Source of the DNA: Albugo candida
Lineage: Eukaryota
DNA length: 64,000 nucleotides
Assembly (NCBI GenBank): GCA_040437565.1
Contig: JBDOQK010000003.1
Coordinates: forward strand, 310,001-374,000
Reading direction: 5' to 3'
Both the position numbers and the translations under genes were made by a program. Within the stretch, counting starts at the first letter, position 1. Each line of letters opens with the position of its first letter. This document shows, in pieces, positions 2,364 to 62,088 of this stretch. Under the pieces are notes generated by a model. It did not search any database, was not told where the DNA came from, and worked only from the letters and a program-made list of their open reading frames with translations.

Positions 2364-4626
<2,263 letters not shown>

Positions 4627-38476: not shown

Positions 38477-40347
38477 ATGTTTTCTCTACAAAAGCATTAT
38501 GCCACACGATACATCCGTCAACTAAATCCGTTGCTTCGACAATACAGCTCGGACAAACTCTCTATTCTAAAGCAGCTCGAAATTAAAGAAGAAAATTGCG
38601 GCGTGTATGGCGGGGAATGGTTCGGGAATGGACCAATACTTGATTCTATCAATCCCGCGGATAACACAGAAATTGCAAGCGTTCGTAGTGGTAATCACAA
38701 TGACTACCAGAAAGTCATTGAAGCAATGAATGCGGCTAAACCGCTATGGGCGCAAACTCCAGCACCACTCCGAGGAGAAGTTGTCCGACAAATCGGTGAC
38801 GAAATGAGACGAAACAAAAACGCACTGGGAGCAATAATTGCGCTGGAAATGGGAAAAATAATGGTTGAGGTACTAAACAATAGAGAAAATCGATCTGTAA
38901 TGCCGTATCAATAGAGTCATTGCATTCTGTAGGCTCTTGGAGAAGTACAGGAAGCAATTGACATTTGCGATTTTGCGGTTGGATTGAGCCGAATGCTGAA
39001 TGGATCTATAATTCCTTCTGAAAGACCCGGTCACTTCATGATGGAGCAATACAATCCTTTGAAAGGACATGTTGGAATTATTACTGCGTTTAATTTTCCA
39101 TGTGCCGTACTGTTCTGGAATGCCGCGATTAGCTTGGTTTGCGGCAACACGCACATTTGGAAGCCTTCCGAGTCACTTTCATTGACTTCGATAGCTTGTA
39201 ATAAAATCATTACCAGAGTGTTAGAAAGAAATGGCTTCCCAGGTGCTATATCGTCATTGATATGTGGCGAGTACGTAAATATACATAAGTCGATAACTCG
39301 GAGTGCTGATTCACTCGGGCATTTAGAGGTTTAACAATCGGGGAAGCACTAATTCAGGATCAACGTGTCGAGCTGGTTTCATTCACGGGATCTACACAAG
39401 TCGGACGACATGTAAATCAAGTTCTGGCAACGCGATTCGGGAAAAGCATACTTGAACTGGGAGGGAATAATGCGATGATTATTGACAAGGATGCAGATCT
39501 TGAGATGGCTTTACGAGCAACCTTGTTTTCAGCCGTTGGGACAGCTGGACAGCGATGCACATCATTGCGTCGACTATATCTTCATTCGGACATTTATCAG
39601 CCTTTTTTGAAACGACTTGTTTCAGCCTACAAGAAAGTCCGCATCGGAAACCCTTTGGAAGATGGTGTACTGTGTGGGCCTTTGCATAACAAAGAGGTCT
39701 GAAGGTTCGATTTGGTACCTTGAAGTATCTGATTATGTTGACTTGCTTTTCAGGCTGTACAAAAGTATCTGGAAGGCGTACAAGCGATTAAGAAACAAGG
39801 AGGAGAGGTTCGCACAACTCTCACCATCTGAAAAAAATTAAAGCCTTCCACGTGTAGGTGCTTGTCGGAGCAAAAAAAGTCAAAGGCGGGGGAAATTTTG
39901 TGGAGCCAACCATTGTAGCCATTCCGCATGATGCGCCGATTGTTCAGGTGAAAACGTCATCTTTTCCCTGCATAATGTGCTCATATTTGCATTCACCGAC
40001 AGCAAGAGATCTTCGCTCCGATTTTGTACGTCATGAGCTTTCAGTCGCTGGAAGAAGCCATTCAAAAAAATAATGCTGTACCACAAGGCCTATCTTCCTC
40101 GCTCTTTACAGCTAATCAAGCCGCCATTTTCAAATGGACTGGACCGGGTGGGTCGGATTGTGGGATTGTCAATGTCAATATTGGGCCAAGCGGCGCTGAA
40201 ATCGGAGGAGCCTTTGGCGGTGAAAAGGATACCGGAGGCGGTCGTGAATCTGGAAGCGATGTATGGAAGCAGTACATGCGTCGATCTACTTGCACTATCA
40301 ATCATAGCGATGATCTTCCGCTAGCTCAAGGAATTGACTTTAGCTAA
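38477..40347 (+). CDS. ALDH7A1: Aldehyde dehydrogenase family 7 (antiquitin / alpha-aminoadipic semialdehyde dehydrogenase)
   Basis: [96 protein letters not shown]. Confidence 0.96.
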
Positions 40348-40541
40348 TCGGAAGCAAGAAATTTAATGTTGGAAGCTCCGTCTACGTTTAAACAGCACCA
40401 GAAGCCGCTGACGTCCTTTGGTATAAGGTCGTTAGGTTGTAGCACCGTAGGAGAGGCGAATAACGAGGATTCCCGAATTTACCTTCAACGACAAGTTGTT
40501 ATCTTTTTCCTATCGCTGCTACAGTTCTGCGTCACATTCCA

Positions 40542-41303
40542 ATGAGTTGCTGTCCAGCGTCAAGCCTTCCTCCTACAGACCCGAACATCGGAATCGGATG
40601 TGTGAAAAAGTACGGCCAAACAACAATTTATGTCACGGGACCGCCTAAAGCCAAAGCTGGACTTTTAGCCCTACCTGAGATATTCGGTCTTGAAAGCGGT
40701 CGTATACGAACGGATGCTGATCGTTTGGGAGAACTTGGATACGCTGTTGTCCTGGTGGATTTGGCGGATGGGGATTATGTGAAAGAGGTTGACGATACAT
40801 TGCAAGGATGGCTTAGAAAGCATCCTTGGGATTCGACCATGAAGAATCACCTACAAGACGCAATGGAGTATCTACAAGGAGAAGCGCATGTGGAGCGCAT
40901 GATGAGTTACGGCTACTGCTGGGGAGCTTGGGTCGGTGCTCATCTATCAGCGATGGAAGCTTCCCCTATCCTTGGTCATGTATCTTTTCATCCGTCCTGG
41001 ATTGTTGAAAATTATTTGAATGGAGAAGGTGCCGTGAACGAGCTCGCAAAAACGATCAAAGTTCCGCAGCTTCTTCTATCTGCCGGTGATGATCCTGACT
41101 TTATACGACACGATGGAGCCGTTCACAAGATATTGTCCTCTATCGACAAGATCGGACAACATTGTGAAATTTTAGACTTTCCAGAGATGAAGCACGGTTG
41201 GGTCACTCGTGGTGATCTCAACGATCCTGATAGTCGGGATGCGGTCTTCAGAGCATGGCACAAAGATGCTCTTCCTTTTATTCAAAAGCTCTGTCCTGTC
41301 TAA
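40542..41303 (+). CDS. Dienelactone hydrolase family protein
   Basis: Single-exon 253 aa; MSCCP start, PEIFG, nucleophile motif GYCWGA, SFHPS, AGDD, MKHGWVTRGD. Confidence 0.92.
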   Translation: MSCCPASSLPPTDPNIGIGCVKKYGQTTIYVTGPPKAKAGLLALPEIFGLESGRIRTDADRLGELGYAVVLVDLADGDYVKEVDDTLQGWLRKHPWDSTMKNHLQDAMEYLQGEAHVERMMSYGYCWGAWVGAHLSAMEASPILGHVSFHPSWIVENYLNGEGAVNELAKTIKVPQLLLSAGDDPDFIRHDGAVHKILSSIDKIGQHCEILDFPEMKHGWVTRGDLNDPDSRDAVFRAWHKDALPFIQKLCPV

Positions 41304-41701
41304 CATTTCAATTCAAAGTCTTAGCAAGTTGTATTGTCTAACAGCAATGGAGCTGTGTTCATTCCTTTAATTTGCAATTCTTGGATTACCGCGCATTACA
41401 AATCATTTATGTTGATTTTTGCACGCATTAGCTTATCTGATGTTCCCGACCATACACGGAGTCCTTCAAACAGACTAGCAGCGCAAAAGCTAAACCCATC
41501 GTGCAAAGGGTTCGTAGATGCCGATCAGATGGTCACAATGTTTGAAAGGATGACAATTTGTCAATATGACACCAATAGCATTGTCGGTTCTGGCTGCTTG
41601 AGTTGAGTCAATTTACAGCATTCATTCATCTGTGTTCAGTTTGCTTTCGAACTCATGCCCTTCCTTTACTCAGATCTGATCTTATCAATTCATAGAGTCA
41701 G

Positions 41702-42555
41702 GTTATTCATAAGGGTTTCATTATTCAGCCCTCACCCTCCATAAATTAATGGCCATCTTGGCCTCTGGTTGGTCTGAATAGATGCAGCTGAATAAATACA
41801 ATAAAATCAGGAAAAAAACCGGTTTCTGCAATTTTGTACAACTTGACCTACTGCTGCAGGTGTTGCTGGTGTTGTTAGTGCTATTGGTCCTTCTATTGCT
41901 TCTTGAAGGCAGTTTTCGATATATTGTTTTGTTTTCTACAATGCCGACATGTTCGGCGATGCACAGGAGCATCCAAAGCAGCAGTAGCATGGTCAAACTT
42001 CGATGGAAGTCGCTGCGTTGAGCTCGATGGCCTACCACGCGTGCGCACTTGCACAGGATCGCGAATTTCTGTCTCTGGTATTGCCAATATATACTCTAGC
42101 AGCACACGCTTGAGATGATTGCAAGCATCCTCATACTCATCAGCAATCCTATTCAGTGCTATCTCAATTCCAATTGGCATGGTCCCAGTATGAAGTGGCA
42201 TTGGCTATACCAGCCACCATAGCCGATCAAAAACCATCAACTGACAGTGGTATCACTTGTTGAAGAGAAGCATAGGCGCAAGGAGAGCCCATTGACGATG
42301 TCAATAAGCCTACATTCAAATTGAAGTTGCACTTAATTGCAGGAGATAAAAGACTGATTATTTAATCCGCTGCATCTATTCTGACCAATCAGAGGCTTCG
42401 CTTATCATTAATTTATGGAGGGTGGGGGCTGGATAACATCTCCGCAATTTATCCTCATTTATTCTGTTATATTTCTTTAAACCAATCAGAGGCCACTAAG
42501 CTATTAATTTATGGAGGCTAAGGGCTGATTTCAGAAAAAATGGGGGCTGAATAAC
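41702..42555 (-). mobile_element. Non-autonomous MULE/Mutator-like deletion derivative with terminal inverted repeats
   Basis: Left TIR about 41702-41800 (cagccctcaccctccataaattaatgg...gcctctggttggtctgaatagatgcagc) is the reverse complement of about 42356-42437, with a second copy at about 42455-42555. Internal minus-strand remnant IRDPVQVRTRGRPSSSTQRLPSKF...CRHCRKQ plus MGSPCAY (SWIM-like), typical of a MULE transposase C-terminus. Confidence 0.75.
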
Positions 42556-45478
42556 GATTCCCTAGTCATAATGAGAGAAATGACGCTGGAATGCTCGTCG
42601 ACGAGTTTTGAAAGAACATTCCGGCAGTGATTCAATACTGATACACATTCTAAAGTATAGCACAATACTTTTGGCTCCATCGTGATCAATCAAGGTAATG
42701 TGCGTCCTTCCGATCAAGGCACTATCAGATGCACTTTTGGTTCCGGAATGCAGTGTTAGGGTGGTGGACATTACCCGGTCGCACTAGATAAAAATCTTCG
42801 CAGCGCTTTGCTCTTAATAACTGTACAAGAATCTAACCAACAAGTTCCATTCAACAGTAATGCGATTGTGGTGTTCATTCACATTTTGCTCATTGGCAAA
42901 TGGACGACATTTTTCAGTCGCTTGTCGTCTGCGTGCACACAGCTCAAAATCACCTTTGAGGCTTAAGATTCTTAATTGAGAAGCAGAACCGATCACAAAA
43001 GAGCTGATAAATCGTCGTTCACTGGCACATTGGTAGCAATTTAATGTATTTGCGCAGGAAATAGTAAAATTTTATGTTTGAGAAGAATCTATGGTACAGG
43101 AAAGCAGGACAATATCAATTGCATTTTTTACAGACACTTTCGTGCTTAGCCGGGGAAGGAACTTGTCACCACGATCAAGCACAAGCTTTTGTTTCAATCA
43201 AAGCAACGATAGCGATTGCCTGAGTTACTGGTAAAGATACAAACTTTCTTCTGAAGGAATACCGATAGCATTTGCAGAAAAGTATCCAGCTTCATTGGGC
43301 ATTGCTTGAAACAAATGGATTTTCCCATAAGAAAATTGGTACCGAACTGGGACTCTAGACAAGCAACTTTGCTTGTGAAGTGTAGGGAACACCAGTTGGC
43401 TTATATGTTGCGAAGCTTTGTGTCGAGTGATCAGTGCCAACCGACAACAAACGTATTTCGATGAGATAATTGTCCAGGCTCAACTCGTCATATCTTAGTG
43501 CGACATCTATATAATACTCGCCGAGTGTTTCTCGACGTGTGCTTTTTTTGGAGCAGCCCGTTTAGCTGCAGTTCTGCAGTTTATGAGACGTAGGCAATAA
43601 ACTTGAGAGAATTGAGCGAAGATACCGAGTCTTGTCCACATCTCCAACAGCCTCAATGCCATTGACTTGATCTATATCGCTGCTGAGAACCCCTTTCTGA
43701 CCATGCTTCAGCAAAATGGGCATCACGAAGTTTCAAAGAGAGATTCTGAAATCCTCTGGGAGATTTTAGCCCATCAAATACCAACCCAAATTATTCATCA
43801 AGATTCTCGAATATGACCAAGAAAAATATTTCAATTCTGCTGGTAGTGGGTTGAGAAGCACATTGCGTGTAAGCAGATCGATTATACTTCACACCAAGTG
43901 CCAACGATGAAATGCCTTCACGATACGCATATTTCACCGCACTGGCCAATAATTTATCAAAGTAAAGCTCGGAAACGAAAAGGTCGCGTCGAGGATTCAT
44001 TGGAAGATGTCGCACTGAGAGTTCAATCTGCTTTTCTTCTCGTGTGCCGATCCAAGTGCTCAAATGGAATAGCCATATTTGCCGATGATTCTGCATGATT
44101 TTTTAGTCGCTTGTAATGATTACCACAGCCAAGACTAGACAAGCCGTCCTTGGGACTTTTTTCCCGCTTATCCAATGAGTTTCTCTGTGATGTTACAAGG
44201 TATAAGTCGGATAGTTACAAAAAGTCGCTGCTTTTATACAAATTTGCTTCCAAGCTGTGCAATCCAGCGTGAAGAAGAATCTAGTCGACCTAATCAACTA
44301 AGAATTGACCTTGGATGTGGTACCAGCTCGCCCCCTCCATGAATTAGGTTTTCCACACCCACTCAGCATAATCTGACGCGACCACTAGCACGTCTGTTCA
44401 TTTTTACAGATAGTAAGAATATCCGAAGTAAATGGTAATGAAAGAATTCAAAACGCCCGTCACAATCCATCACACCAATGGTTTAATATGTGAAAAGTGA
44501 TGTTCATATCGTATTTGCCTGATTGTCGGACAATTCCTATTACAACTTTAAACTGTAAAAATCATGAGCATCTCATTGTGCAATACATTAGTAGAGCCGA
44601 TTTGAACATTGTTTCATTCATTGATAAACTTCAAAGTCACCCAGATGAATAGCAAGATTGTCGTTATCTCATACCTCCAAGTGTTTCCATTTCGATTCTT
44701 TTTTCTAGACCAATTCGATTGAGGTTGACTCAGTTCGTCGACCTTTTAATTACAGCAGTCATGCATGATGTACAAACACGAATCCATCGTGTATTTGTTA
44801 TCTTTTGTAGCTTTGTAAAAAGCTGTGAATATCCCCTCAAATTGCTCTACAGGTGTGGAGCATATCGATATGCGTGGATATGGATAAATACGAGGTGTCA
44901 ACAGCAGAGAAATATCCAGTTGAAGCTGTAAGAACTTCTGATTCGAAATGTTGAGTCTATGCGATCTGAAGAACACACGTAAATGACGGTTTTCTTTAAG
45001 GATCGCCTTAGTGACGTGGATACGACAAATTTCGGCGATGGCTCGATAGCGGAGCTTCTGACAATGACTGATGGGTACATTCGTCTCGGGCGCTGCTTTT
45101 TTGGTACACTAATGTTACTTATGTCGTTATTTGTGTGATTATGATGCGTACCTAAGGAAGGCCAGCTTTATATCACAGCATCTCAATCCATTATCAGTGT
45201 CTACCTTGGATACTTCCGAAGATGAACTCGATGATCGATGCTGCAAGTACGATATCAGCAAAAATAGCGTGTTCCTAGTGTTCCTAGACTCATTTGTTAC
45301 ATACAAGTCAGTGTGGTGGATATCTCACTTTATTGACAATTGTTGCCGAAACGAGACATGTGTTTTCTCTTTTAATTTCTCTATGAATTAAACTATGTAT
45401 ACACATTGTTTGACGGTTCTTTCGTGGGATCAGTCGAAGGTGTCTATATTACTAGAATTAGACTAACTGACTTCTCTA

Positions 45479-45769
45479 GATGTGTTGGATTTTATTAGAA
45501 AAGCGGGGGAGCAGCGTTGGATTGATTGTTAAGCAGAACTTATCTCAAAGTTCTAAAGGAAAGTAAGGGGATACAAAGTTGTAATGTATCAGATAACTAA
45601 GGAACATGTGTTGTAATTCATTGGGAGCGCAAGAGAAAAGGTAGGACTATATCACCAAACAAAGGAAGACGTGCTGGACTTTATCGAAAAAGGAGGAGAT
45701 AGTGCTGGATCAACTCTTATCACAAACCTAAAGAACGTATATCACGAAACCAAGGAGATCAAGGATTAG
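45479..45769 (+). pseudogene. Decayed gene fragment with about 21-aa (63-bp) repeats
   Basis: One frame reads DVLDFIRKAGE...MYQITKEHVL*FIGSAREKVG LYHQTKEDVLDFIEKGGDSAG...VYHETKEIKD* with internal stops. Confidence 0.55.
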
Positions 45770-46094
45770 ATACTACACGACATGGGAATCATGAGGATTC
45801 TCTGTCGAGAAAGCTCTACTCGTGCCGTTTTTTATTTATTTATTCCTTTATGAGTATGATTCTTTTGGGTGCATCCTATATTAGCGCATAATTTGAGAGG
45901 GTTTCCTGGCCTGTCCAGGTCCTAACTTCCCCACAGTTGGTCTTGTTAGCACTTTCAGAACTTCCCTCAGCCTGCTACAAGCATCTATTCTAATTTGAGG
46001 TCGCTATCACCGTGCCTGCAGCCGATAAAAGTATACAGGTTCCCTGTACTTGCTATATAGGGTTTCAAATGATGAACGTTCTTGCATGTCCTAC

Positions 46095-46157
46095 TATATT
46101 ATAAAGCAGGTCTAGAACTTTCACTTCCCAATACGCTCTCGACTACTCACACCAACC
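46095..46157 (+). promoter_or_regulatory. TATA-like box, oomycete Inr and short leader directly upstream of the inverted repeat
   Basis: TATATTATAAAG (46095-46106), TCACTTC (46121-46127, fits YCAYTYY), leader ending CACCAACC at 46157. Confidence 0.55.
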
Positions 46158-46540
46158 TGAGGATGATCCCTCGGGCTTATGTGCAAGACGCTTCGTTAAT
46201 TTATCCATCACAACACTACCATCCTTGATCACTTTTAATAATTGTTCTTTACTCATACCTGATCATAAACAAATCATTAGTTTTGGCTACGATTTGATAG
46301 GAAATATACTGCATTACCGTTGTGAGTTGCATGTAGCATATCCTCAAAAAACAATACAGCTGACCCAGCAACCTTTCTAAATTCTTCTGCATCAGCCGCT
46401 GACTGGCTTTGCTTATCGTGCACGACCAAAGATTTAACATCCTTTGCGTCATTCCCTGACTGTGTTTGCTTACTCAACACTAGGTGCTGCTGACCCGAGC
46501 GAAGCAAAACGAATGCGACAATTGACAAACTTCGTGACAT
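46143..46540 (-). pseudogene. Inverted copy of a small, probably secreted protein gene (2 exons)
   Basis: MSRSLSIVAFVLLRSGQQHLVLSKQTQSGNDAKDVKSLVVHDKQSQSAADAEEFRKVAGSAVLFFEDMLHATHN|GMSKEQLLKVIKDGSVVMDKLTKRLAHKPEGSSSGWCE*. Intron GTAATG...CTAAT...ATCAG; hydrophobic N-terminus. Confidence 0.6.
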
Positions 46541-46826
46541 GATTTGAAATCTTTGGTCGTGCACGATAAGCAAAGCCAGTCAGAGGCTGATGCAGAAGAA
46601 TTTAGAAAGGTTGCTGGGTCAGCTGTATTGTTTTTTGAGGATATGCTACATGCAACTCACAACGGTAATGCAGTTTATTCCCTATCAAATCGTAGCCAAA
46701 ACTAATGATTTGTACATATGATCAGGTATGAGTAAAGAACAATTATTAAAAGTGATTAAGGATGGTAGTGTTGTGATGGATAAACTAACGAAGCGTCTTG
46801 CACATAAGCCCGAGGGATCATCCTCA
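46158..46826. repeat. Long inverted repeat (arms 46158-46441 and 46541-46826, 99-bp loop); candidate hairpin-RNA locus
   Basis: Arm 1 begins tgaggatgatccctcgggcttatgtgcaagacgcttcgtt; arm 2 ends aacgaagcgtcttgcacataagcccgagggatcatcctca. Only a handful of substitutions and one 2-bp indel; no N gap nearby. Confidence 0.95.
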
Positions 46827-46877
46827 ACACCACCAACTTCCGATTCCAAAAAGAAACATCTTCGCTCGCGACTTTGA
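46541..46877 (+). pseudogene. 5'-truncated sense copy of the same gene carrying the probable native C-terminus
   Basis: DLKSLVVHDKQSQSEADAEEF...HN|(intron 46665-46725)|GMSKEQLL...GSSSTPPTSDSKKKHLRSRL*. An in-frame TGA lies just upstream and there is no ATG at its 5' end. Confidence 0.6.
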
Positions 46878-49800
46878 GGGTCTAGTTGAAAGACATCCGA
46901 GCTCTTGCAAAAGTTCGTGTACTCCATCAGTAAAGAGATTTATCCCTTTTTATAATTTAATGTATCCATTTTTGTGATTATCATACTGCGGCATCTAGTC
47001 CATATTCCATGAATCTGAATGAAGTACTATTAAGGTCACCAGATTGGTCCGGGATCTCTCCAAGTAGAAGATAGTAAAGTAGTTTTACAAGAAGCAAACG
47101 GCAGTGGCATTGTCCGCAACCGCTACGCTTTTAATTATTTCCTCCCCGAGCCTGTTGAATTCCTCTTCTGGCATGATTATCAATATGTTGCGTTTCATTT
47201 CTCTCATGGAAGCTTTGTTCAATTTTATATTTTTTTCATGCTCACATAATCCTCCTTAGCTATCTACTTTTAATTCCCTTTCAATGTCGTCTTCTAGTGC
47301 GGTTTCCAGCTGCACCTAGCTTATTTGCTCCACTTTTGTCTTCGATATATTGATTGGAATATAGCACAATTACTACAGAATAGCAATCCTATTGATAAAA
47401 AACCCTACACGGAAATATGTCAAGAAATTGTTGCGTTGAGATCTACTCATTTGAGTTCTACTTGAGCTACGAGCGGCATAATAATGCTGCTCGATCCCTT
47501 GGTCGTTTGAGGTGAACTGTTTTAGCAGCCTCGAACCAATTTTTTGGAAGTGGAAAGCTTTGGCTAGCAGAGCGTTTCATTATACTTCTGCTAGGCTTCC
47601 ACTCCATATGTGCCGTCTCTTATAACCTGCGCGTGGCGACTGCTGTTTCACCCGCATATTCAAATGTTGAAAAATCGGGGCATTTGATTTCAGCGGGGTA
47701 CTTGACGCATCCAATGTATTTGGATCACGCAGATATTACATTCGTGTTTTGATTGAAATCGGATCAAAGAACCAATTGCTTTGTGGAACTTCCATCTTAG
47801 CTTCCATCCGCGATTCCTTCTATTTTTAAAACTAATTCACAACTACGGATGAGGACACCCGACATAATCTTCAGGTTTTGTATGAATTCAAACAATCAGA
47901 ACGATGCAAACTCAATTATATGCTCGTGATACAACTATCAGCAATGTACATTCTGGGCTCACCATCTTCTCGTCGGAAACAGACAGGTGCGAAACCAGGG
48001 TAGAAAGTAGCCGATGCGAGACATATCCGCAGGATCAGTTTTCAGACGCAAGGATCAGCGTTCAAGTACGTACAATGTGCATATCACCGTGATCAGTCCC
48101 ACAATATAGAATAGATTCATAATCGAGCGCGAGATTTCCGATCTTGGCTTGCAAAGGAGTTCTAGTGAATGCACAACTTACGTAAGTAGAGTCGAAGAAT
48201 TCTGAATCAAATTGAACGTGCACTCATATCAAAACTTATCTTTGTTTTTTATATGAGATCGCAGACATGCAGGGTTTGTTGTAGCATACTAGAGCGCTTC
48301 GACAAGAAAACAAGCATAAATGTGCGCAGCCATGAACGGCGTCCAGCATTAGGCATTCTGCTTTTTTAATTTGTGAAAATCAGTGACATGTTGAACGAGA
48401 CAGCGAATCGATGTATTATGCTCGCTTTTCAGCCAGCGTCATTTAGTCTTTGTATAGATCATGAGGTCAATGCACTTAATCGGATATTGCATCAACAGCC
48501 CATTATCATTTAGGCTATAAGTAGTACATTGAACTAAGTTGAAAGCACATATCTAACGGGCTGTGAATCGTCCGCTATTCGATGTGCCACTCTCCAATCG
48601 CAATGTCATTGAGCTGCATGTGTAGTCACAAGAACACCTTTAAAGTTCCACTTGCGCTCTATCTACCATCTTGTCTTCAATATTCTTTTCGTTTGATATT
48701 GCTACATGCGGCAGCAAGATCTTTGAAAAGAATGCTGTCTCAAAGCGATGCACGGGTGTATAAAATAATCTCATACCCAGTGTATATTGCAGTAGAACTC
48801 ATAACAACTCTGTATGGTCGTAAATGTCAGCGACCTGACTAACTACTGCTTTATTGATAATCGACCGGGCTGAAACTTACATGCAGCAATTTGTAGCCGT
48901 GTCAATATTGTGCATTGTTTCTCCTCCCTTTTGCGCTACACAGCGCTGTATCTCTTCAATGTAAGCAACACTTGCTGCTATGCCTAGAAGTCGTGATGCC
49001 AGTTTTGAAAGATCAGTGATATCAGAGAATAAAAGTGCGTAATTGATCGTGGCAGGTATTCTGATTCTAAGGAAAAGATTGAGTAGACTCAAATTCTATG
49101 TAGTCCCAACTTTATCATGACACACATGCCGAAGTGATCTATTTGGTTTGAGTTCTGATAGAGTAAAAGCCTCTTTGGTCCATGATGCCAGCTGAAGTCG
49201 ACAAATCTATCATCTCTCAAATCTGACTGGCACAGACAAGACAGCTTGTTCACTTACGAGAGCAAAGCCAAGATCAAGCTTGCACTGCTTCTGATACGAG
49301 GAAGAGAAATTCTGTGCCATCTGGTCCCGCCGTAGTGTTCTGGACCTGTGATATTCTTGGTCCGACGAGCACACTCGATAATACAGCATGATTATCTGTA
49401 GGGTATACAGCGGAAAAGAAAGTGGTAGTACCATACAACATTTCACTTGCGGACGCAACAGCGTCTCTCAAGCTGCAAAGTAATAAGCCCGAAGCTTCTT
49501 TGCTGACTTGATTGGTGCTTTGCTTCAAAGTGGTAATTCCAAATATATCTAGTTCCTCAAGGATGACATCAGCAGCAGAAATTTATAGCACAAAGATGTA
49601 TCTTGATAACTGATCGGACACTAGCTCTCATTCAGACGTACGACCATTTGACCAAGCCTCTAGGAGCACGATCCCCAAACTTCATCAATAGAAGAGAACC
49701 AAGCAGCCATCAATGATGGTGAGATGCAAAAAAACTGATGGCTCATGCTTTACCTAGTACCTTGTGGTGGATATATTACTCGCATCTTTTCCAGTAGCCC

Positions 49801-50176
49801 TGTTTTGCTATCTCTCCAGTATCTGGTTGTTATCTAAAACCCTTTCCAGATCTTTTTCTACTTGTATCTGTATCATTAAGGTATCTGCGTTTAAATCGAA
49901 CGACTGGCATAAAATAAATTTATTAATGCTTGGGTTTCACAATTCACACATGAATTTATATGCTTCCTGCGAAACCCGTCTACTCTTTTGCCTTATTTAC
50001 TACAACAGCTTCTAATTCGAGTTCATCGGTGATCCTCATGCTTGTGCAACATGAACAGATCGATTCATATTGTCCACGAAGAGCCAGGTCATCGTATGTA
50101 AACAGATAGTTTCGATACGTATGTGACTAGTCTGAATACTGTGTAGCCCACAACGATAGCGTAATGAAGAGGGTAT

Positions 50177-51843
50177 ATGTTTTCGCCGAATGGAAAGCAT
50201 ATTGCATCGGCCGCACCGTTCGGTCGATCGATCTTTCGATGTAAGCGATTGAATCTAATCGATCTCTCCCATCGTTTCGTATCACGCCCACAAAAACGAC
50301 GTCTTTTTACATTTCCATCGTACTCGCAGCCGCTTATCAAATCACATTCTGAGACCAAAGTGGTACCTTTTTCAGCCGACGAAATGTTCGATGTGGTCGC
50401 CGACGTCAATTCCTATAAAGAATTCCTTCCATTTTGTGTGGAATCACGAATTCTTCGAAAACCAAATGAAAATGTCATGGAAGCAATGCTTCGGATCGGA
50501 TTCAAGATATTTACAGAAGCGTATACTTCTCGTGTGATTATGAACAGGTGCGAATGGTCAAACTTGTGTCGAGGCCGCGAATTTTACTGTTGAGTTGATG
50601 GATAGACCGCATAAAATCAATATAAAATCTGTCGAGTCCCCAACATTCAAACGAATTGAGAGGTTTGAGATTGCGAGTGCAACTTTCATGCTCTGAATGA
50701 ATGTTTTCCGATAGCGAGTGGCGTTTCAAACAGCTGGATGATCCTTACTCGTGTCAAGTGCATTTTCGTGTCGTTTTTGAGGTGGCTTCTTTTCTCCACG
50801 CAAATGCGATCAAACTGTTTTTTGAAGATGTCGCGCGTACACAACTGAATGCTTTTATTGGGCGCGCTGGATGGAAATACAACAACGACCACGAAAGGAA
50901 TGAGGAGAAGCAGCGTCGAGAGCAAAATACCTTACTTAAAAGACAACTTGGGAGTAGCGAATTGCCTTCAAATGGTGCAACCTTTGGCTCTGAAGTGAAG
51001 AAAAATTCTCCGCATACTTTAGACGGACTTGTATCTATACAAAACGACGATGGTGCCAATCCAATTAAACGACCATCCCTGTCCAAACAAGCAATTGCAA
51101 GTATAAAAGCTACGATTTGTACGCGAGATTACGAGGTCTTGATGCATATTTTCGAAAAATATGCGGACGACAAAACTCGATTATACTTTGGGGGGTTTTG
51201 CAATGCTTGTCGATCACTTGGAGCTGATTATGAAACACTCAAGTCAATCAGTGAGGATACCGTATTAGCGGGTGCCGTTTTCTCAAGCTTTGAGACCAGC
51301 CGCGAAGTAAAAGACTGGCTAGACTTTGATGAGTTTGTCGTCGGTGTGTATCTACTAACAAAAGGCACAGTGGAAGAGAAAGCATTCAATCTCTTTCTGA
51401 CTGTTGACACCAGTCGAGATGGAAGGATTAGCAGAAAGGAGCTAGAAAACGCGATGCAGCGAAGAATCCACACCGTTCGAACAATTTTTCCAAAATTGTT
51501 GACTGATCAGGTTCATATGCAAATGCAACATGCTAACGTAACGAGTTTACCATCAACAGCGGAATCCATCATGTCGGAAGGCCTGAAACTGATCGAAACT
51601 TTAATGGAAGATATCGAAAAAGACATTCCGCTGGCCGTCAATCAGATATTCAGCAAGGCAGATCTTGATCGTGATGGATACATCACTGAGGACGAATGGC
51701 TTGTTGCATGGCAATCACATCCTGAATTAGTGGAATTGATGACCATTGACGGGATGCAGAAAATTGCTCAGTGGGCGTCCGTCGTGCAGCCTGACGAAAA
51801 CGAAGACTCCGCATTGGACACGAGGCTAACACATATCGATTAA
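50177..51843 (+). CDS. COQ10-like (START/polyketide cyclase) domain fused to an EF-hand (NCS/calcineurin-B-like) domain
   Basis: HSETKVVPFSADEMFDVVADVNSYKEFLPFCVESRI, MLRIGFKIFTEAYTSRV, two introns, EWRF...CQVHFRVVFEVASFLHANAIKLFFEDVARTQLNAFIGRA. The same exon continues into EF loops DTSRDGRISRKE and DLDRDGYITEDE. Confidence 0.88.
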
Positions 51844-51978
51844 TTGGATCAGAATAGATTGATATTTTGCAACAAACACTCGTCCATGTCTTAAAGCAGG
51901 GTACCGAGCAAAAAGAAAAGATTCAAGCGTTCAATCTGATTCATTACCAAAAGTGAACTTTTACAATGAAACAAAGTG

Positions 51979-54142
51979 CTAGTCTTGAGCTTGCTTCACT
52001 CGCCATTGCGTTATTTTGAGGTTTTGCAAGCGCATAATGCGACGGTAGAAAACCAAAAACCAGATGATCCCGAGCACACTGCAAATCACAGTCTCGACAT
52101 AGTATCCATCTTGGATGATTAAACACTCGCCTCCAGCATCTATACATGCTTGTCGTTCTCCTGCATCAGAACACGTTTTCGACCCAATTGATAAGATATC
52201 AGTGTGATTCGAGCCCCCAAGACACTCGCGTGTCGTCAGTTGATCCACAAATGCAAGACTCAGCGAATTCGGCCACTATAGAGAACATAAGATGTGAATG
52301 ATGGAACAATGATGCAGTCTCTACTCACCTTGGAACCAAGATTAGATATGGTATTGAGGAATGTCATATATGTGCCACCGATGGATGGATCACTGATTCG
52401 TGCGAAAAAGTTCATCTAAGCGATTTTTGCGTCAGAGGTTAAATCATCAATATCGCGCATTTCGTACCTGCGGTACAAACATCATATTTGCAGCGACTTC
52501 GTGCATGGCGCCACAGACCAGAATAAAAAGATAGTAGTAATAATGAACGCCTTCGTGTTGAGCCATAATTCTGGGCGTTAGATACACGATCAAAGCGTAT
52601 AGCAATCCCACACCAANNNNNNNNNNNNNNNNNNNNNNNNNNNNNNNNNNNNNNNNNNNNNNNNNNNNNNNNNNNNNNNNNNNNNNNNNNNNNNNNNNNN
52701 NNNNNNNNNNNNNNNNCAAGACACTCGCGTGTCGTCAGTTGATCCACAAATGCAAGACTCAGCGAATTCGGCCACTATAGAGAACATAAGATGTGAATGA
52801 TGGAACAATGATGCAGTCTCTACTCACCTTGGAACCAAGATTAGATATGGTATTGAGGAATGTCATATATGTGCCACCGATGGATGGATCACTGATTCGT
52901 GCGAAAAAGTTCATCTAAGCGATTTTTGCGTCAGAGGTTAAATCATCAATATCGCGCATTTCGTACCTGCGGTACAAACATCATATTTGCAGCGACTTCG
53001 TGCATGGCGCCACAGACCAGAATAAAAAGATAGTAGTAATAATGAACGCCTTCGTGTTGAGCCATAATTCTGGGCGTTAGATACACGATCAAAGCGTATA
53101 GCAATCCCACACCAAGACGCAGTTGGTAACCCCACATGAATAAGTTTAATGGCTTCTGTGGATCAATCAGCTTGCCTAAGAAAATTGGTATGATGATGCC
53201 CAAAGGCACCAGTATCGGGGATAGCAAAGCCAACTTTTCTTTTTTCAGTCCATATTCGACAAGTTTCAGTGATGCGACACTTTCAGCCGCAGCAAAGGCG
53301 ACTTTACTTGTCAGTAAAATGAGCGATAGTTGAAGCACGGAAGATAAACGCATTACTGATCCCATCTGCTTGTATGTCTCTTTGATACTCAGTCGTTGTT
53401 CTTCATCGTCCTGCTTCTCTTTCTTGAAAATCCACACTCCGATTGTCGTTACGAGCATGACCCATCCCCAAAAGCTCATAAAACCTGGCAATGTGACCAT
53501 ACCTTGATCTTGTGGAACACTTCGGAAATAAGCATTGCAAGTCGCGGGGTCATGAAACGCTAGAAAGCCAACGTACGCGGCAAAATAACCCAATGTTTGT
53601 CCTACCGAATTACAAGTGGAAGCATGACCCACATTTTCTGCAGAAAGCATAGTTAAAGCCCATCCATCCACAGCGATGTCTTGGGTCGCCATCATGAAAT
53701 ATAAGAGGAAGAAAAATGCAGTCAAAGCACCGACATGAGGTACGGAGTGTTCACCTTCACCCAACAGACTATCTGCGAAAAAGCTACCTCCAATCATCAA
53801 AGCTGCACAAATAAATTGAACGGGAATGAGCCAAGATTTTCGACGTCCAAAATGATGATGATAAGTGGAATCGACGATTGGCGCCCATAAAAGTTTGAGA
53901 CTGAATGGCCACGAGACGAGGCTGAAGGTTGCTTGATCCGAGTAGCTCACTTTCTCTTGCAATAAGAAGGGGATACTGGAGGAGAGGCCCATTGGGATAC
54001 CTTGCAGTGTGTACAATAAGAGCAATAAAGCCATCGAAGACCAATCACTGGAGCTTTTATTTGGTGGATTTATGGATGTACATGTTTCAGATGCACCAGC
54101 ATTGCTTTTTGTAACCTTGGAGGTCGCTCTCTTCTTTGCCAT
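51979..54142 (-). CDS. SLC33A1: Acetyl-CoA transporter 1 (MFS, SLC33A1/AT-1); spans gap 52617-52716
   Basis: LLLLYTLQGIPMGL, WPFSLKLLWAPIVDS, FGRRKSWLIPVQ, MATQDIAVDGWALTML, ISDPSIGGTYMTFLNTISNLG, C-terminal DGYYVET. Confidence 0.95.
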
Positions 54143-55445
54143 TTTTGGCCTTACGAAATGTCAACACGTATGTAAAATCGCTTGTACTATTATTGCTATT
54201 ATTAATAGTAAAATAGNNNNNNNNNNNNNNNNNNNNNNNNNNNNNNNNNNNNNNNNNNNNNNNNNNNNNNNNNNNNNNNNNNNNNNNNNNNNNNNNNNNN
54301 NNNNNNNNNNNNNNNNATTATTGCTATTATTAATAGTAAAATAGACCCTTTGGATATATCTGGTTCGCGAGGAGGCTATATATGTATTTTATGAGGCATT
54401 TGTCGAGCACATCAGCTTGTAGATTGAAGCAAACAGGTGCAAGCGATATGTAACTTCGCGTGGGACGGCCTACAATACAACGCATTTCAGGGGCAGTCGA
54501 CGAATCCACATAAAAATAATCGATGATACCGGAACCTATTATAAATCTCATTATCAAAGATGGAAATGTAGTCGCCATATCGGAATTCTTCTGGTGGAAG
54601 TGGAGTATGATGTCCTTACATCATAGTGTAATCACCAAGCATACGAGAAAAAAAAATACCAATAGCGCAGTGCGATTTTAGATTGAATCGATAGTTGCCG
54701 CCCTTGCACGTCGCAACCCTACCATTCCAATCAATGCGATACCGGATATTACAAAGTTACATGAGCCATACTCATTATGTATAGCAGTCAAAGTGAAGAC
54801 CTTGATTGGACTTGGTACACTCTTGAAACGATATGTAAACGCCTAGAAGCTAGTTTGGAATTGTGGATGTTCTCGATGATACTTCAGATGGACCTTCACT
54901 GATGCCACCATTTTTCACCTATATTGAGACCATTTCAGCATGGTCATTGATGCAGTTTTTTCTTCGATAGGTGAAAGTAATCAATTATCAGCTATAATGA
55001 TTGCTTCCTACGGAGATTACCTCGGGCAATGAAGAATATTGGCGCGCATCTTCATCTGCAAAGTGCACTTGCGTATCAGAATCAATTTATCGAGCTAGCA
55101 ATGTCGTGGGAACGTGCAATAGAATGAAAGTAGATCCATCGACAAACCAGTTCTCATACACGCGATCAACGCCTCCATCCGGCAACTTCTAGTAATGAGG
55201 TTGTATAATAATATCAAATCAACACGAAACACCACTTCACTACTCAAAATCGCCCTTGAACCCTCAGAAAGGGCTGCAATGCACTGGTCGATTCTACGGC
55301 ATCGCAATGAGAACATGAGACAAGAGAGTAGAGCTCTGTAACTAAATCAAATGTTACGGATGTGTAAGTCATTAAGTGATGAAACATCACATTCCCCAAT
55401 AGCTTTGGCAAGTCGATCGAAGGTAGCCGAAAGCATCAAATCAGG

Positions 55446-60279: not shown

Positions 60280-62088
60280 TTATTGCTCTGCTTGCCTCCA
60301 CTCATCGCGAACTTTGACGGGAAGTTGCGTTTTCTTACAAAATTCCAACTGCTGTTTGCTATCAATGTACAATTTTGCAGGTGGGGCGAAACCATTAAAG
60401 TCTGATCCAGCCGCACAAGTGTACGCGCCCATGCTTGGAAAACAAATCCACTCGCCTACACGAAGTTGTGGCATCCTTACGTCTTTCATTATACAATCCA
60501 TTCCGTCACATGTGGGACCCCAAATGCTTGCAAGATGGAAGTTTTTACTTTCTACTGGTTCCGTTGTGAGCACAACAGGTTGAATTTCTGGGTGATCGTA
60601 TATGAGGCAATTGAACGACCCATACAGCCCGTCATTGATAAAGTACATGTAGCTCGATTCCGCGGTCTTCTGCAGGGACCTTTCCAAAATTGGAGCAACT
60701 TTCCGTCCAATGACACATACCGCAAGCGTGTGTGTGGAAGCAGCAAAGAAACGGCCCGGCTCGGAAATGACTTGAACATGACCTGAGTCTGGAAAGTACG
60801 TTGCGAGCGAACTTGCAAGCTCTTGCGCGCATTCTTCGAATGTGATAGGACCGTTCTCCGTTCCGGGAAATCCACCACCAATATCTAACAACTGAAAGGA
60901 GAAATCCAAGTCTGCGCCAATATCAAAAGCCTTACGAGCACGTTTAATTGCATCAGAGTAGGCAGATACGCTATAACATCNNNNNNNNNNNNNNNNNNNN
61001 NNNNNNNNNNNNNNNNNNNNNNNNNNNNNNNNNNNNNNNNNNNNNNNNNNNNNNNNNNNNNNNNNNNNNNNNNNNNNNNNTGTGGAAGCAGCAAAGAAAC
61101 GGCCCGGCTCGGAAATGACTTGAACATGACCTGAGTCTGGAAAGTACGTTGCGAGCGAACTTGCAAGCTCTTGCGCGCATTCTTCGAATGTGATAGGACC
61201 GTTCTCCGTTCCGGGAAATCCACCACCAATATCTAACAACTGAAAGGAGAAATCCAAGTCTGCGCCAATATCAAAAGCCTTACGAGCACGTTTAATTGCA
61301 TCAGAGTAGGCAGATACGCTATAACATCCACTTCCCACATGAAAACTGACACCAACAACTTCTAAATCAAGTCTTTTGGCATGAGTGAGGATGGATGGAA
61401 CGTCGTGCAACATGGCGCCAAATTTTGTTCCAAGACGACAGATTGCTTTTGTATCGTCGACGTAGAGACGTAAGACGAGTCTAGCGTCAGGATTGGTCGC
61501 TTTGATTTTATCTAATTCGTCGTGAGAATCAAACGTCATAAGATTCACTGATTGGGTCGCAGAGTATCGAATATGTGATGGTTGCTTGCACGGATTTGCG
61601 TATATAATATCCTCTGAACGCACTCCAAGACGCAAAACCGCTTCGATTTCAGCGCGGCTGGCGCAGTCAAAACCACATCCTAGACGAGCCAACGTGTGTA
61701 AAAGCTGTTGATCAGGATTGCATTTGACAGCGTAGAACGGCTTGACGAGTGGCAAATATTTTTTCCATAATTGATATCTCTTCGTCAGCGCGTGGAGATC
61801 CACAACATAAAATGCATCTTCTTGGCCGCATTGAACTCGTTGCATCACTTGAGAGATGATAGAAGGATTCCACTGCAATTCTTCGATTGACGTATTTGTA
61901 ACTTCGAATGCATTGTGACTATGCTTGCTAGACCAATTACTATGACTATTGCAAATGATTGGTAGAATGGCGCACTGACCGCCTGAAATAGTTGACAGAT
62001 TGCATCGTGTATGACCAAACCTCGAAGCCAATTGGGATTGTAGTTTCCAAACCCGTGGGAAGAACGATTTGTGACGGACGACGATCAT
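60280..62088 (-). CDS. ODC1: Ornithine decarboxylase (about 486 aa after removing the 348-bp gap plus duplication artefact)
   Basis: AFYVVDL, PLP-lysine PFYAVKCNP, GFDCAS, IIYANPCK, KFGA, GVSFHVGSG, LDIGGGFPG, EPGRFF, INDGLYGSFNC, WGPTCDGMD, MGAYT...FNGF. Confidence 0.97.
   Translation of the reverse strand: MIVVRHKSFFPRVWKLQSQLASRFGHTRCNLSTISGGQCAILPIICNSHSNWSSKHSHNAFEVTNTSIEELQWNPSIISQVMQRVQCGQEDAFYVVDLHALTKRYQLWKKYLPLVKPFYAVKCNPDQQLLHTLARLGCGFDCASRAEIEAVLRLGVRSEDIIYANPCKQPSHIRYSATQSVNLMTFDSHDELDKIKATNPDARLVLRLYVDDTKAICRLGTKFGAMLHDVPSILTHAKRLDLEVVGVSFHVGSGCYSVSAYSDAIKRARKAFDIGADLDFSFQLLDIGGGFPGTENGPITFEECAQELASSLATYFPDSGHVQVISEPGRFFAASTXXXXXXXXXXXXXXXXXXXXXXXXXXXXXXXXXXCYSVSAYSDAIKRARKAFDIGADLDFSFQLLDIGGGFPGTENGPITFEECAQELASSLATYFPDSGHVQVISEPGRFFAASTHTLAVCVIGRKVAPILERSLQKTAESSYMYFINDGLYGSFNCLIYDHPEIQPVVLTTEPVESKNFHLASIWGPTCDGMDCIMKDVRMPQLRVGEWICFPSMGAYTCAAGSDFNGFAPPAKLYIDSKQQLEFCKKTQLPVKVRDEWRQAEQ

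What the first reader, a model, noticed from the sequence alone, without database searches (positions are those of the whole stretch)
46095..46877. Natural hairpin-RNA locus made by in-place inversion/duplication of a secreted-protein gene behind its own promoter
Seen in sequence: the order is P - rc(B) - rc(A) - B - C. P is a TATA box, an Inr (TCACTTC) and a leader ending in a Kozak-like CAACC. A is exactly 99 bp: the first 33 codons, including the ATG and a signal-peptide-like stretch. B is about 285 bp of intron-containing coding sequence, and C is the C-terminus (TPPTSDSKKKHLRSRL*). Re-inverting 46158-46540 would put the ATG right after CAACC and restore P-A-B. Inference: the native promoter now yields a transcript folding into a ~285-bp near-perfect stem, the same layout as an engineered RNAi hairpin. 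It could feed Dicer-like/AGO machinery (known in oomycetes) to silence alleles or paralogues of a candidate effector, or supply cross-kingdom siRNAs. This parallels the inverted-duplication model for the birth of plant MIRNA/hpRNA genes.
Basis: partly seen in the sequence, partly recalled or inferred. Interest (0 to 1): 0.88.

Follow-up and report, generated by a model that had tools for sequence, protein, structure and literature searches.

The report
Inverted gene-fragment repeat in Albugo
A small orphan gene of the white-rust pathogen Albugo candida has an upside-down copy of its own body sitting just in front of its start codon, so RNA made across it would fold into a long hairpin; the DNA structure is real, but nothing yet shows that it is transcribed or makes silencing RNAs.

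Summary
Window 46158-46441 and 46541-46826 are inverted copies (276 of 284 aligned bases identical, one 2-nt indel) around a 99-nt loop that holds an ATG plus 33 codons. It is the only long inverted repeat in the 64 kb. Contigs from two public DNA runs of two studies reproduce the loop and both outer joints, so it is not a misassembly. The organism is Albugo candida.

The only complete ORF (ATG, exon 1, 59-nt GT..AG intron, exon 2) is on the minus strand. Both public gene models lie there and read into the supposed promoter P. A 92%-identical relative starts MVQI-MSRS. That fits the DNA just outside the right arm abutting the 6-nt leader. It does not fit P or the right arm.

Best reading: a ~281-bp inverted copy of the gene body was inserted 6 bp upstream of the ATG of a minus-strand orphan gene. 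Either strand folds at about -525 to -552 kcal/mol. Transcription, small RNAs, secretion and any trans target are unshown. Natural inverted-repeat siRNA loci are already known in Phytophthora. Interest is moderate to low.

The parts
46095..46157 (+). 'P' of the finding: TATAAA (46100), TCACTTC (46121), ...CAACC (46157). More likely the 3' flank of the minus-strand gene than a promoter.
   Evidence: Strings seen. Motif frequencies (TATAAA 43, degenerate Inr-like 7-mer 199 in 64 kb, both strands). Both public gene models place minus-strand exons here.
46158..46441 (-). Left arm, the resident gene body. It holds the distal part of exon 1 (46318-46441 of exon 1 46318-46540), a 59-nt GT..AG intron (46259-46317) and exon 2 (46258 down to the arm's end at 46158). 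The ORF ends 4 codons later at TAG 46143-46145.
   Evidence: P0001 residues 1-75 are 100% identical to 46540-46316; exon 2 matches at 46262-46191.
46442..46540 (-). Loop: ATG (46540-46538) plus 33 codons, with a signal-peptide-like N-terminus MSRSLSIVAFVLLRS. It is 111 nt (46436-46546) if the weak 6-nt ends are counted as loop.
   Evidence: A 171-nt contig covering 46406-46576 is present in both DNA runs.
46541..46546 (-). 6-nt leader CAAATC directly upstream of the ATG. It is shared, as Q-I, with the relative P0002.
   Evidence: (the P0002 alignment starts at 46546).
46547..46826 (+). Right arm: a 5'-truncated inverted copy of the gene body (from codon ~35, with a 61-nt intron copy at 46665-46725). 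No ATG. Inferred to be the inserted copy; the base at 46827 may belong to it.
   Evidence: In-frame TGA at 46535-46537. Inference of insertion.
46827..46877 (+). 'C' of the finding: 16 further open codons (TPPTSDSKKKHLRSRL*). Probably read-through into the native 5' flank of the minus-strand gene, not a real C-terminus.
   Evidence: translation. No protein holding this tail was found. The minus-strand reading ending at 46828 is ...LVV.
46949..46954 (-). TATAAA on the minus strand, about 120 nt outside the right arm. A possible remnant of the native promoter region; weak evidence.

Best explanation
This is a real, single-copy inverted partial duplication in the Albugo candida genome. The resident unit is a small lineage-restricted ORF or gene on the MINUS strand: ATG at 46540, exon 1, a 59-nt intron, exon 2, stop at 46143. 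A ~281-bp inverted copy of its own body (from about codon 35 to the arm's end, intron included) was inserted 6 bp upstream of its ATG. The likely cause is one fold-back or template-switch event during replication or repair (inferred).

Consequence (inferred): a transcript from the gene's native upstream side, right of 46827, now carries an antisense copy of the coding body in its 5' leader. It would fold into a ~280-bp stem with the ATG and the first 33 codons in the loop. Such a stem should block scanning and translation, and it is a substrate for Dicer-like enzymes. The most likely outcome is cis-inactivation of this orphan gene, with siRNA production as a by-product. An evolved trans-acting or cross-kingdom regulator is less likely.

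Shown: the DNA structure, its presence in independent read sets, the strand of the complete ORF, and the folding potential of both strands. Inferred: which arm is the copy, the mechanism of origin, transcription, and dicing.
For: Structure:
- Arms and loop as.
- It is the only strong inverted repeat in the window.

Independent DNA. Logan contigs of X3 and X2 (two studies) each give:
- a 735-nt contig over 45600-46187 (P plus 30 nt of the arm);
- a 171-nt contig over 46406-46576 (loop plus 36 nt on each side of the 99-nt loop);
- a 15121-nt contig over 46797-47400 (30 nt of the arm plus C).
- Arm contigs have depth 179.9 against 117.6/130.8 for the flanks in X3, and 41.5 against 36.9/35.6 in X2. 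That is above one copy and at most two, so there is no multi-copy family.

A second assembly. CCI11796.1, on an 833-nt contig, reads in one exon from arm exon 2 into P (33 + 13 residues). This bridges the 46157/46158 joint.

Strand:
- The only ATG-started ORF with A and B contiguous is on the minus strand.
- Both public models are on the minus strand.
- The plus-strand copy lacks a start.

Which arm is the copy. P0002 (92% identical over 89 residues) begins M-V-Q-I-M-S-R-S.
- Q-I is the 6-nt leader 46546-46541.
- The minus-strand reading of the DNA ending at 46828, just outside the right arm, is ...L-V-V. A GTG start there would give M-V.
- The window's own right arm gives ...Q-R-F and P gives ...T-P-T.
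- My rough estimate of a chance fit of [start codon][Val] in one of three registers is about 0.01.

Folding: plus strand -524.8 kcal/mol (z -41.6), minus strand -551.7 kcal/mol (z -39.2). In each case 0 of 20 shuffles did as well.

Context:
- Albugo has DCL, RDR and AGO homologues.
- In Phytophthora, inverted repeats were the most active small-RNA sources per Mb, and a 714-nt inverted repeat gives heterogeneous 21-nt siRNAs (passages of PMC3804510).
Against: - The 'which arm is the copy' argument rests on 4 residues of one relative, known only as a protein.
- The outer joints are covered by only 30 letters on the arm side in the Logan contigs. That is one short of the tool's 31-letter bridging rule. 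It is what a k=31 graph gives at a repeat edge (inference).
- Those contigs cannot phase the loop's orientation relative to the flanks.
- The ORF may not be a real gene. There is no Pfam hit. The Atlas model is poor, pLDDT 0.49. The two public models disagree on the 3' exons and their frame. 29 ORFs of 80 aa or more occur in 12 kb here, most surely noise. The 8% amino-acid divergence from P0002 is about what neutral DNA would give.
- The last 9 nt of P and the first 9 nt of C match 7 of 9 in direct orientation. A simple template switch does not explain this.
Confidence: 0.55

Rival explanations
1. The ancestral gene was P-A-B-C on the plus strand. A and B were inverted in place with B duplicated. 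The native promoter P now drives a plus-strand hairpin RNA that feeds RNAi.
For: - A TATAAA and TCACTTC about 20 nt apart, and a leader ending CAACC, lie just left of the arm.
- The plus-strand copy stays open for 16 codons after the arm.
- The plus strand folds at -524.8 kcal/mol.
Against: - It needs two events, or one complex event. Re-inversion gives P-A-B-B-C.
- The motifs are common words, and a TATAAA also lies on the other side on the minus strand.
- 16 open codons are expected by chance roughly half the time (my estimate).
- No protein with the C tail was found.
- The relative's residues before the Met (V-Q-I) do not match P (T-P-T).
- Both public models use P as minus-strand exons.
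Confidence: 0.12
2. Whatever its origin, the locus is a used hpRNA gene. It is transcribed and diced into 21-25-nt siRNAs that regulate a target in trans (an allele, a paralogue or a host gene).
For: - The stem is intact (97%) and present in at least two further read sets.
- The RNAi machinery is present in the genus.
- There is precedent in Phytophthora inverted-repeat loci.
- hpRNA loci that silence young genes are known in Drosophila simulans (abstract of PMC10317233).
Against: - No trans target was found. There is no other copy in the window. The only homologues are P0001, P0004 and P0002. No 90-99%-alike contig appeared in the two whole DNA runs (table 1).
- Arabidopsis ago1 mutants showed no change in Albugo laibachii pustules (passage of PMC7297541). 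This speaks weakly against cross-kingdom RNAi in the genus.
- 97% arm identity can be kept by inter-arm gene conversion without selection.
Confidence: 0.08
3. The 669-bp unit 46158-46826 is a foldback or MULE-like non-autonomous transposon with ~280-bp terminal inverted repeats. It inserted with a ~9-bp target-site duplication, and the 'gene' is a chance ORF.
For: - The flanks next to the two arms match 7 of 9 in direct orientation (ACACCAACC | ... | ACACCACCA).
- Long terminal inverted repeats with a short interior are typical of such elements (recalled).
- The ORF has no known family.
Against: - There is no other copy in 64 kb.
- Arm depth is only 1.15-1.5 times that of the flanks in two genomes.
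- No transposase or RT domain was found in 10 neighbouring ORFs.
- The duplication is imperfect.
- P0002 shows loop plus left-arm sequence contiguous with the outer right flank. That fits an internal duplication, not a whole-unit insertion.
Confidence: 0.07
4. The region is non-coding and the ORF, intron and signal peptide are chance. The repeat is a neutral fold-back duplication of intergenic DNA with no consequence.
For: - ORFs of this size are common here (29 of 80 aa or more in 12 kb).
- The two gene models conflict.
- There is no family and no confident fold.
- The region 41.6-50 kb has no recognised domain.
Against: - The ORF is kept open with the same start in a relative at 92% identity.
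- GT..AG boundaries that keep the frame are retained in both arms.
- Of the 3 clear coding-part differences between the arms, 2 are synonymous (my reading).
Confidence: 0.15
5. Assembly artefact (chimeric or palindromic read, or mis-joined contigs).
For: This assembly does contain artefacts. 100%-identical direct repeats end or start at 6 of the 7 runs of 100 N.
Against: - Those artefacts are direct, 100% identical and touch N runs. This repeat is inverted, 97% identical and far from any N; the nearest N run is at 52617.
- The loop and both outer joints recur in the contigs of two other runs.
- They also recur in a protein model from an 833-nt contig of another assembly.
Confidence: 0.02

Closest known systems
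Inverted-repeat siRNA loci of Phytophthora (e.g. pin-IR2758, a 714-nt inverted repeat giving heterogeneous 21-nt siRNAs; Fahlgren et al. 2013, PMC3804510, passages read)
   Same: An oomycete genomic inverted repeat of a few hundred bp, predicted to give a long near-perfect hairpin RNA.
   Different: Small RNAs were sequenced for those loci and none are shown here. This one is in Albuginales, derives from the adjacent gene itself, and holds that gene's start codon in the loop.
Birth of plant MIRNA/hpRNA genes by inverted duplication of target-gene sequence (abstract of bioRxiv 10.1101/682591 seen; the original 2004 model is recalled, not read)
   Same: An inverted partial duplication of a protein-coding gene, with arms still near-identical to the parent. 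This would be the proto-stage.
   Different: In that model the hairpin is a separate locus acting in trans on the parent or its paralogues. Here the copy sits in the parent's own leader, so parent and hairpin are one unit and no other target is known.
Drosophila hpRNA endo-siRNA loci (abstract of PMC10317233 seen)
   Same: Long hairpins derived from young genes, processed by the siRNA pathway.
   Different: Those have demonstrated siRNAs and trans targets (selfish X-linked genes). None of that is shown here.
Engineered intron-containing hairpin RNAi transgenes (abstract of PMC9263138 seen)
   Same: Promoter - arm - spacer - inverted arm layout with a ~280-bp stem.
   Different: This one is natural. 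The spacer is the gene's own 5' coding end, not a spliceable intron. Per that abstract, such inverted-repeat transgenes are invariably methylated in plants and self-silence at the transcriptional level, which warns that an inverted repeat need not stay expressed.
Fold-back or template-switch inverted duplications with a spacer (replication/repair by-products; recalled general knowledge)
   Same: A local inverted copy separated from its template by ~100 nt, with two new joints and a single copy.
   Different: No clear microhomology is seen at the joints. There is only a 4-of-6 match at the inner joint.

Membership tests
hpRNA / inverted-repeat siRNA locus | Long inverted repeat able to form an extended dsRNA stem | tested here: met
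   276/284 identity with a 99-111-nt loop. MFE -524.8 kcal/mol (plus strand) and -551.7 kcal/mol (minus strand), z about -40.
hpRNA / inverted-repeat siRNA locus | One transcript spans both arms | tested here: inconclusive
   No listed holder is on record as RNA. The two runs guessed to be RNA gave contigs only at 45600-45930 and 45600-45757.
hpRNA / inverted-repeat siRNA locus | 21-25-nt small RNAs from both arms and not from the loop | not testable with these tools
   No small-RNA data were reachable. Searches for Albugo small-RNA work listed no Albugo sRNA-seq study.
hpRNA / inverted-repeat siRNA locus | Dicer-like, Argonaute and RDR present in the organism | not tested
   Taken from the literature for the genus Albugo (passages of PMC4791657 and PMC6284064). 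Not checked in this genome, which is not held.
hpRNA / inverted-repeat siRNA locus | A complementary target other than the locus itself | tested here: not met
   No other copy in the window. The only homologues are P0001, P0004 (this locus) and P0002. No 90-99%-alike contig in two whole DNA runs. The whole genome and host genomes were not searchable.
Albugo 'CCG' effectors | Secreted protein with a CX2CX5G motif (abstract of PMC10087428) | tested here: not met
   No cysteine in the 97 residues of A+B.
Secreted protein | Cleavable N-terminal signal peptide | not testable with these tools
   MSRS + LSIVAFVLL + RSG looks signal-like by eye. No predictor was available.
Foldback / MULE-like transposon | Terminal inverted repeats flanked by a target-site duplication | tested here: inconclusive
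   Terminal inverted repeats are formally present. The flanks match 7 of 9 in direct orientation. Over 100 nt, P vs C similarity is not significant (264 of 2000 shuffles scored as high).
Foldback / MULE-like transposon | Several copies in the genome | tested here: not met
   No copy elsewhere in 64 kb. Arm depth is 1.15-1.5 times that of the flanks.
Assembly artefact | Joints absent from independent data | tested here: not met
   The loop contig and both outer-joint contigs occur in X3 and X2. CCI11796.1 from another assembly crosses 46157/46158.

The most novel reading that the evidence does not exclude
The locus is a newborn, self-targeting hpRNA gene caught at the proto-stage. The gene's own promoter transcribes antisense arm, ATG loop and sense body as one RNA, which is diced into siRNAs. 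The arrangement is fixed across A. candida isolates. That would make it a gene-derived hairpin siRNA locus in Albuginales and a natural example of a gene silenced by an inverted copy in its own leader; my literature searches listed no such case in Albugo. A bolder variant that is not excluded: recombination between the arms flips the 111-nt start-codon cassette. It would then join either arm and toggle between two 3' ends (...GWCE* on the minus strand...TPPTSDSKKKHLRSRL* on the plus strand). The k=31 contigs cannot phase the loop.
Probability: 0.15. Interest if true: 0.6.

Novelty: new member of a known kind. Interest (0 to 1): 0.33.

Why it matters
If transcribed, this would be a clean natural case of how a hairpin-RNA locus is born from a gene by one local inverted duplication, in an obligate plant pathogen where endogenous small-RNA biology is almost unstudied. 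It is directly testable with one small-RNA library and one long-read check.

As it stands it mainly shows three things:
- The structure is genuine, not an assembly error.
- The two public gene models across it are unreliable. They disagree with each other and read into flank DNA.
- The promoter and effector story built on it is not supported.

A single-copy orphan ORF with no known target limits the biological reach.

Tried and rejected
- Own-genome search: no genome is held for this window, so genome-wide copy number and paralogues could not be searched.
- RNA evidence: no RNA holder is listed. The two runs guessed to be RNA (X17, X20) gave one contig each, at 45600-45930 and 45600-45757, and nothing on the hairpin. 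This is a part without cover and not evidence either way.
- X2's arm contig (46547-46826) differs from the window at 3 places (46584, 46757, 46785), and each change is the left-arm letter. I first read this as inter-arm gene conversion. I dropped that because the assembler may have merged the two arms into one mosaic path. In each run only one arm contig is listed.
- Two exact-pattern scans of JGI metagenome contigs with 26-nt probes from the loop and the arm found 0 matches each.
- The exhaustive HMMER search gave a second hit, P0003 (1069 aa, E 1.7e-8, 8 stretches, 29% identity). Its sequence is a tandemly repeated kinase fragment, and the E-value comes from summed repeats. I rejected it as spurious.
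- ESM Atlas: no usable feature hit. Structure rows come from a poor model (pLDDT 0.49) and match only short helical bacterial proteins below the naming bar.
- Rfam (E up to 0.1) on 44000-48500: 0 matches. tRNA scan of 40000-52000: 0.
- Pfam on 10 neighbouring ORFs: no transposon domain. One sub-threshold PIH1 hit (18.7 bits against a cut-off of 24) and the START-like domain of the next gene.
- Supplementary files of the papers were not opened. Small-RNA locus tables in the supplements of PMC3804510 might hold closer analogues.
Full report
**1. What is there**

- The left arm is 46158-46441 and the right arm is 46541-46826.
- Between them lie 99 nt (46442-46540) that read, on the minus strand, as ATG plus 33 codons.
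- A global alignment of the arms gives 276 identities, 8 mismatches and one 2-nt gap over 284/286 nt.
- The six bases next to the loop agree at only 4 of 6. Homology probably stops at 46435/46547, which would make the loop 111 nt.
- Each arm contains a GT..AG gap that keeps the reading frame (59 nt at 46259-46317, 61 nt at 46665-46725). The 2-nt indel and three of the mismatches lie inside it.
- Of the three clear coding differences, two are synonymous and one changes Ala/Glu (my reading).
- The window-wide scan lists 3 inverted pairs. Two are this locus and the third is a weak 78-nt pair.
- blastn of 46000-47000 against the window finds nothing but itself.

**2. Is it real DNA?**

The scaffold has seven runs of 100 N. 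At six of them a 100%-identical direct repeat ends or starts at the N run, so this assembly does contain artefacts. The hairpin is of a different kind: inverted, 97% identical and far from any N.

The stretch 45600-47400 is held by 20 listed runs from 15 studies, 16 of them with half or more of its sampled words. I laid four runs. The DNA runs X3 and X2 come from different studies, and each gives the same three contigs:
- 735 nt over 45600-46187;
- 171 nt over 46406-46576;
- 15121 nt over 46797-47400.

The middle contig carries the loop with inverted arm sequence on both sides. The outer two join P and C to the two ends of the arm. Each holds exactly 30 arm letters, one fewer than the tool's 31-letter bridging rule. 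That is what a k=31 graph yields at a repeat edge (inference).

Arm contigs have depth 179.9 against flanks of 117.6/130.8 in X3, and 41.5 against 36.9/35.6 in X2. That fits two partly merged copies and no multi-copy family.

The protein CCI11796.1, predicted on an 833-nt contig of another assembly, reads in a single exon from arm exon 2 into P. This bridges 46157/46158 independently.

Limits: the contigs cannot phase the loop's orientation. X2's three 'left-arm' letters in its arm contig may be an assembler mosaic.

**3. What organism, what gene**

Exon 1 (75 aa) finds 2 proteins among 2 candidates:
- KAL0591974.1, 'hypothetical protein [Albugo candida]' (127 aa, on a 1.01-Mb contig, 100% identical);
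- P0002, an unnamed 91-aa ORF from a 16.2-kb Logan contig, 92% identical.

Exon 2 plus C finds only KAL0591974.1 among longer proteins (1 of 9 candidates, through exon 2 alone). Among similar lengths it finds only CCI11796.1 (1 of 1). No protein carries the C tail.

The exhaustive search adds only a spurious repetitive kinase fragment. Pfam finds nothing and the Atlas model is poor.

The 97 residues of A+B contain no cysteine, so the CX2CX5G motif of Albugo CCG effectors is absent (motif from the abstract). The N-terminus looks signal-like by eye, but no predictor was available.

This is therefore a lineage-restricted orphan ORF. Its status as a gene is plausible but unproven. 29 ORFs of 80 aa or more occur in this 12 kb, and the two public models disagree on the 3' exons and frame.

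**4. Which strand and which arm**

The only ORF with ATG, A and B contiguous is on the minus strand. Both public models are on the minus strand and use P as exons. The plus-strand copy has no start, and an in-frame TGA lies just upstream at 46535-46537.

The relative P0002 begins M-V-Q-I-M-S-R-S. Four readings can be compared:
- Q-I equals the 6-nt leader CAAATC (46546-46541).
- The DNA immediately outside the right arm, read on the minus strand and ending at 46828, is ...L-V-V. A GTG start followed by GTG would give M-V.
- The window's own sequence upstream of the leader, which is the right arm, reads ...Q-R-F.
- The end of P reads ...T-P-T.

In the relative, the outer right flank therefore seems to abut the leader directly, and about 281 bp (46547-46827) are missing. 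I read the right arm as an inverted copy of the gene body inserted 6 bp upstream of the ATG.

This needs one event with two new joints.

The argument rests on four residues of a protein whose DNA I could not fetch. I estimate the chance of a fortuitous fit at about 0.01.

The 7-of-9 direct match of the two outer flanks remains unexplained. It keeps a transposon-like insertion alive as a minor rival.

**5. How it would work**

Either strand folds into the same stem:
- -524.8 kcal/mol for 46122-46880 on the plus strand (z -41.6);
- -551.7 kcal/mol for 46900-46100 on the minus strand (z -39.2);
- 0 of 20 shuffles did as well in each case.

In the favoured layout, the gene's own upstream region lies right of 46827, and a TATAAA lies on the minus strand at 46954. 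It would transcribe antisense arm, leader, ATG, loop and sense body as one RNA.

Such a 5' stem should stop ribosome scanning and offer a Dicer substrate. The expected effect is inactivation of this gene in cis, with siRNAs as a by-product (inference).

The promoter-like words in P are common (43 TATAAA and 199 matches to a recalled Inr-like 7-mer in the window). They do not discriminate between the two layouts.

Albugo has DCL, RDR and AGO homologues (passages read).

**6. Comparison and novelty**

- In Phytophthora, inverted repeats were the most active small-RNA sources per Mb. A 714-nt inverted repeat gives heterogeneous 21-nt siRNAs (PMC3804510, passages).
- Inverted duplication as the origin of MIRNA/hpRNA genes is known in plants, and hpRNA loci are known in Drosophila. 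I saw abstracts only; the original plant model is recalled.
- Arabidopsis ago1 mutants did not change A. laibachii infection (PMC7297541, passage). This is a weak point against cross-kingdom RNAi in this genus.
- My literature searches listed no Albugo small-RNA sequencing study and no description of this locus.

If active, the locus would be a new member of a known kind. Its unusual trait is that the copy lies in the parent gene's own leader, with the start codon in the loop.

**7. Verdict**

| Question | Result |
|---|---|
| Observation | confirmed |
| Artefact | excluded, about 0.98 |
| Hairpin potential | real |
| Transcription and small RNAs | not testable here (no RNA holder listed, no cover on the locus) |
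| Interest | 0.33 |
| Boldest reading not excluded | a newborn self-targeting hpRNA gene, or an invertible start-codon cassette (about 0.15) |

Noticed in passing
window 3015-3506, 25434-25665, 60733-61328; also 17745-18044/19346-19645, 30378-30677/32993-33292, 52218-52517/52717-53016: Six 100%-identical direct repeats (66-300 nt) each end or start exactly at a run of 100 N. These look like unmerged overlapping contig ends or misplaced contigs in the scaffold, so they are assembly artefacts. The seventh N run (54217-54316) has none listed.
   Followed up: partly
window 46143-46145: The stop codon (TAG, minus strand) that ends the left-arm ORF after ...GWCE is a Gln in the public model CCI11796.1 from another assembly. 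This may be a strain polymorphism that lengthens the ORF. The contigs of runs X2 and X3 carry the window's letter.
   Followed up: partly
window about 45450-45930: A 481-nt contig from a run guessed to be RNA (X17) covers this ORF-free stretch just left of the locus and ends at 45930. A second such run (X20) covers 45600-45757. This is possibly an unannotated non-coding transcript or a long UTR. There is no Rfam match.
   Followed up: no
window 41721-41798 / 42359-42436: A second, weak inverted repeat (78 nt, 83%, 560 nt apart) lies in the same gene-poor stretch.
   Followed up: no
window 41600-50100: About 8.5 kb around the locus has no ORF with a Pfam family. It lies between a dienelactone-hydrolase gene (40464-41303, +) and a gene with a START-like (Polyketide_cyc) domain and EF hands (50168-51843, +). 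It is a gene-sparse island in an otherwise compact genome.
   Followed up: partly
window 46149-46157 and 46827-46835: The 9 nt on the outer side of each arm match 7 of 9 in direct orientation (ACACCAACC / ACACCACCA). The pattern is like a target-site duplication and is not explained by the template-switch model.
   Followed up: partly
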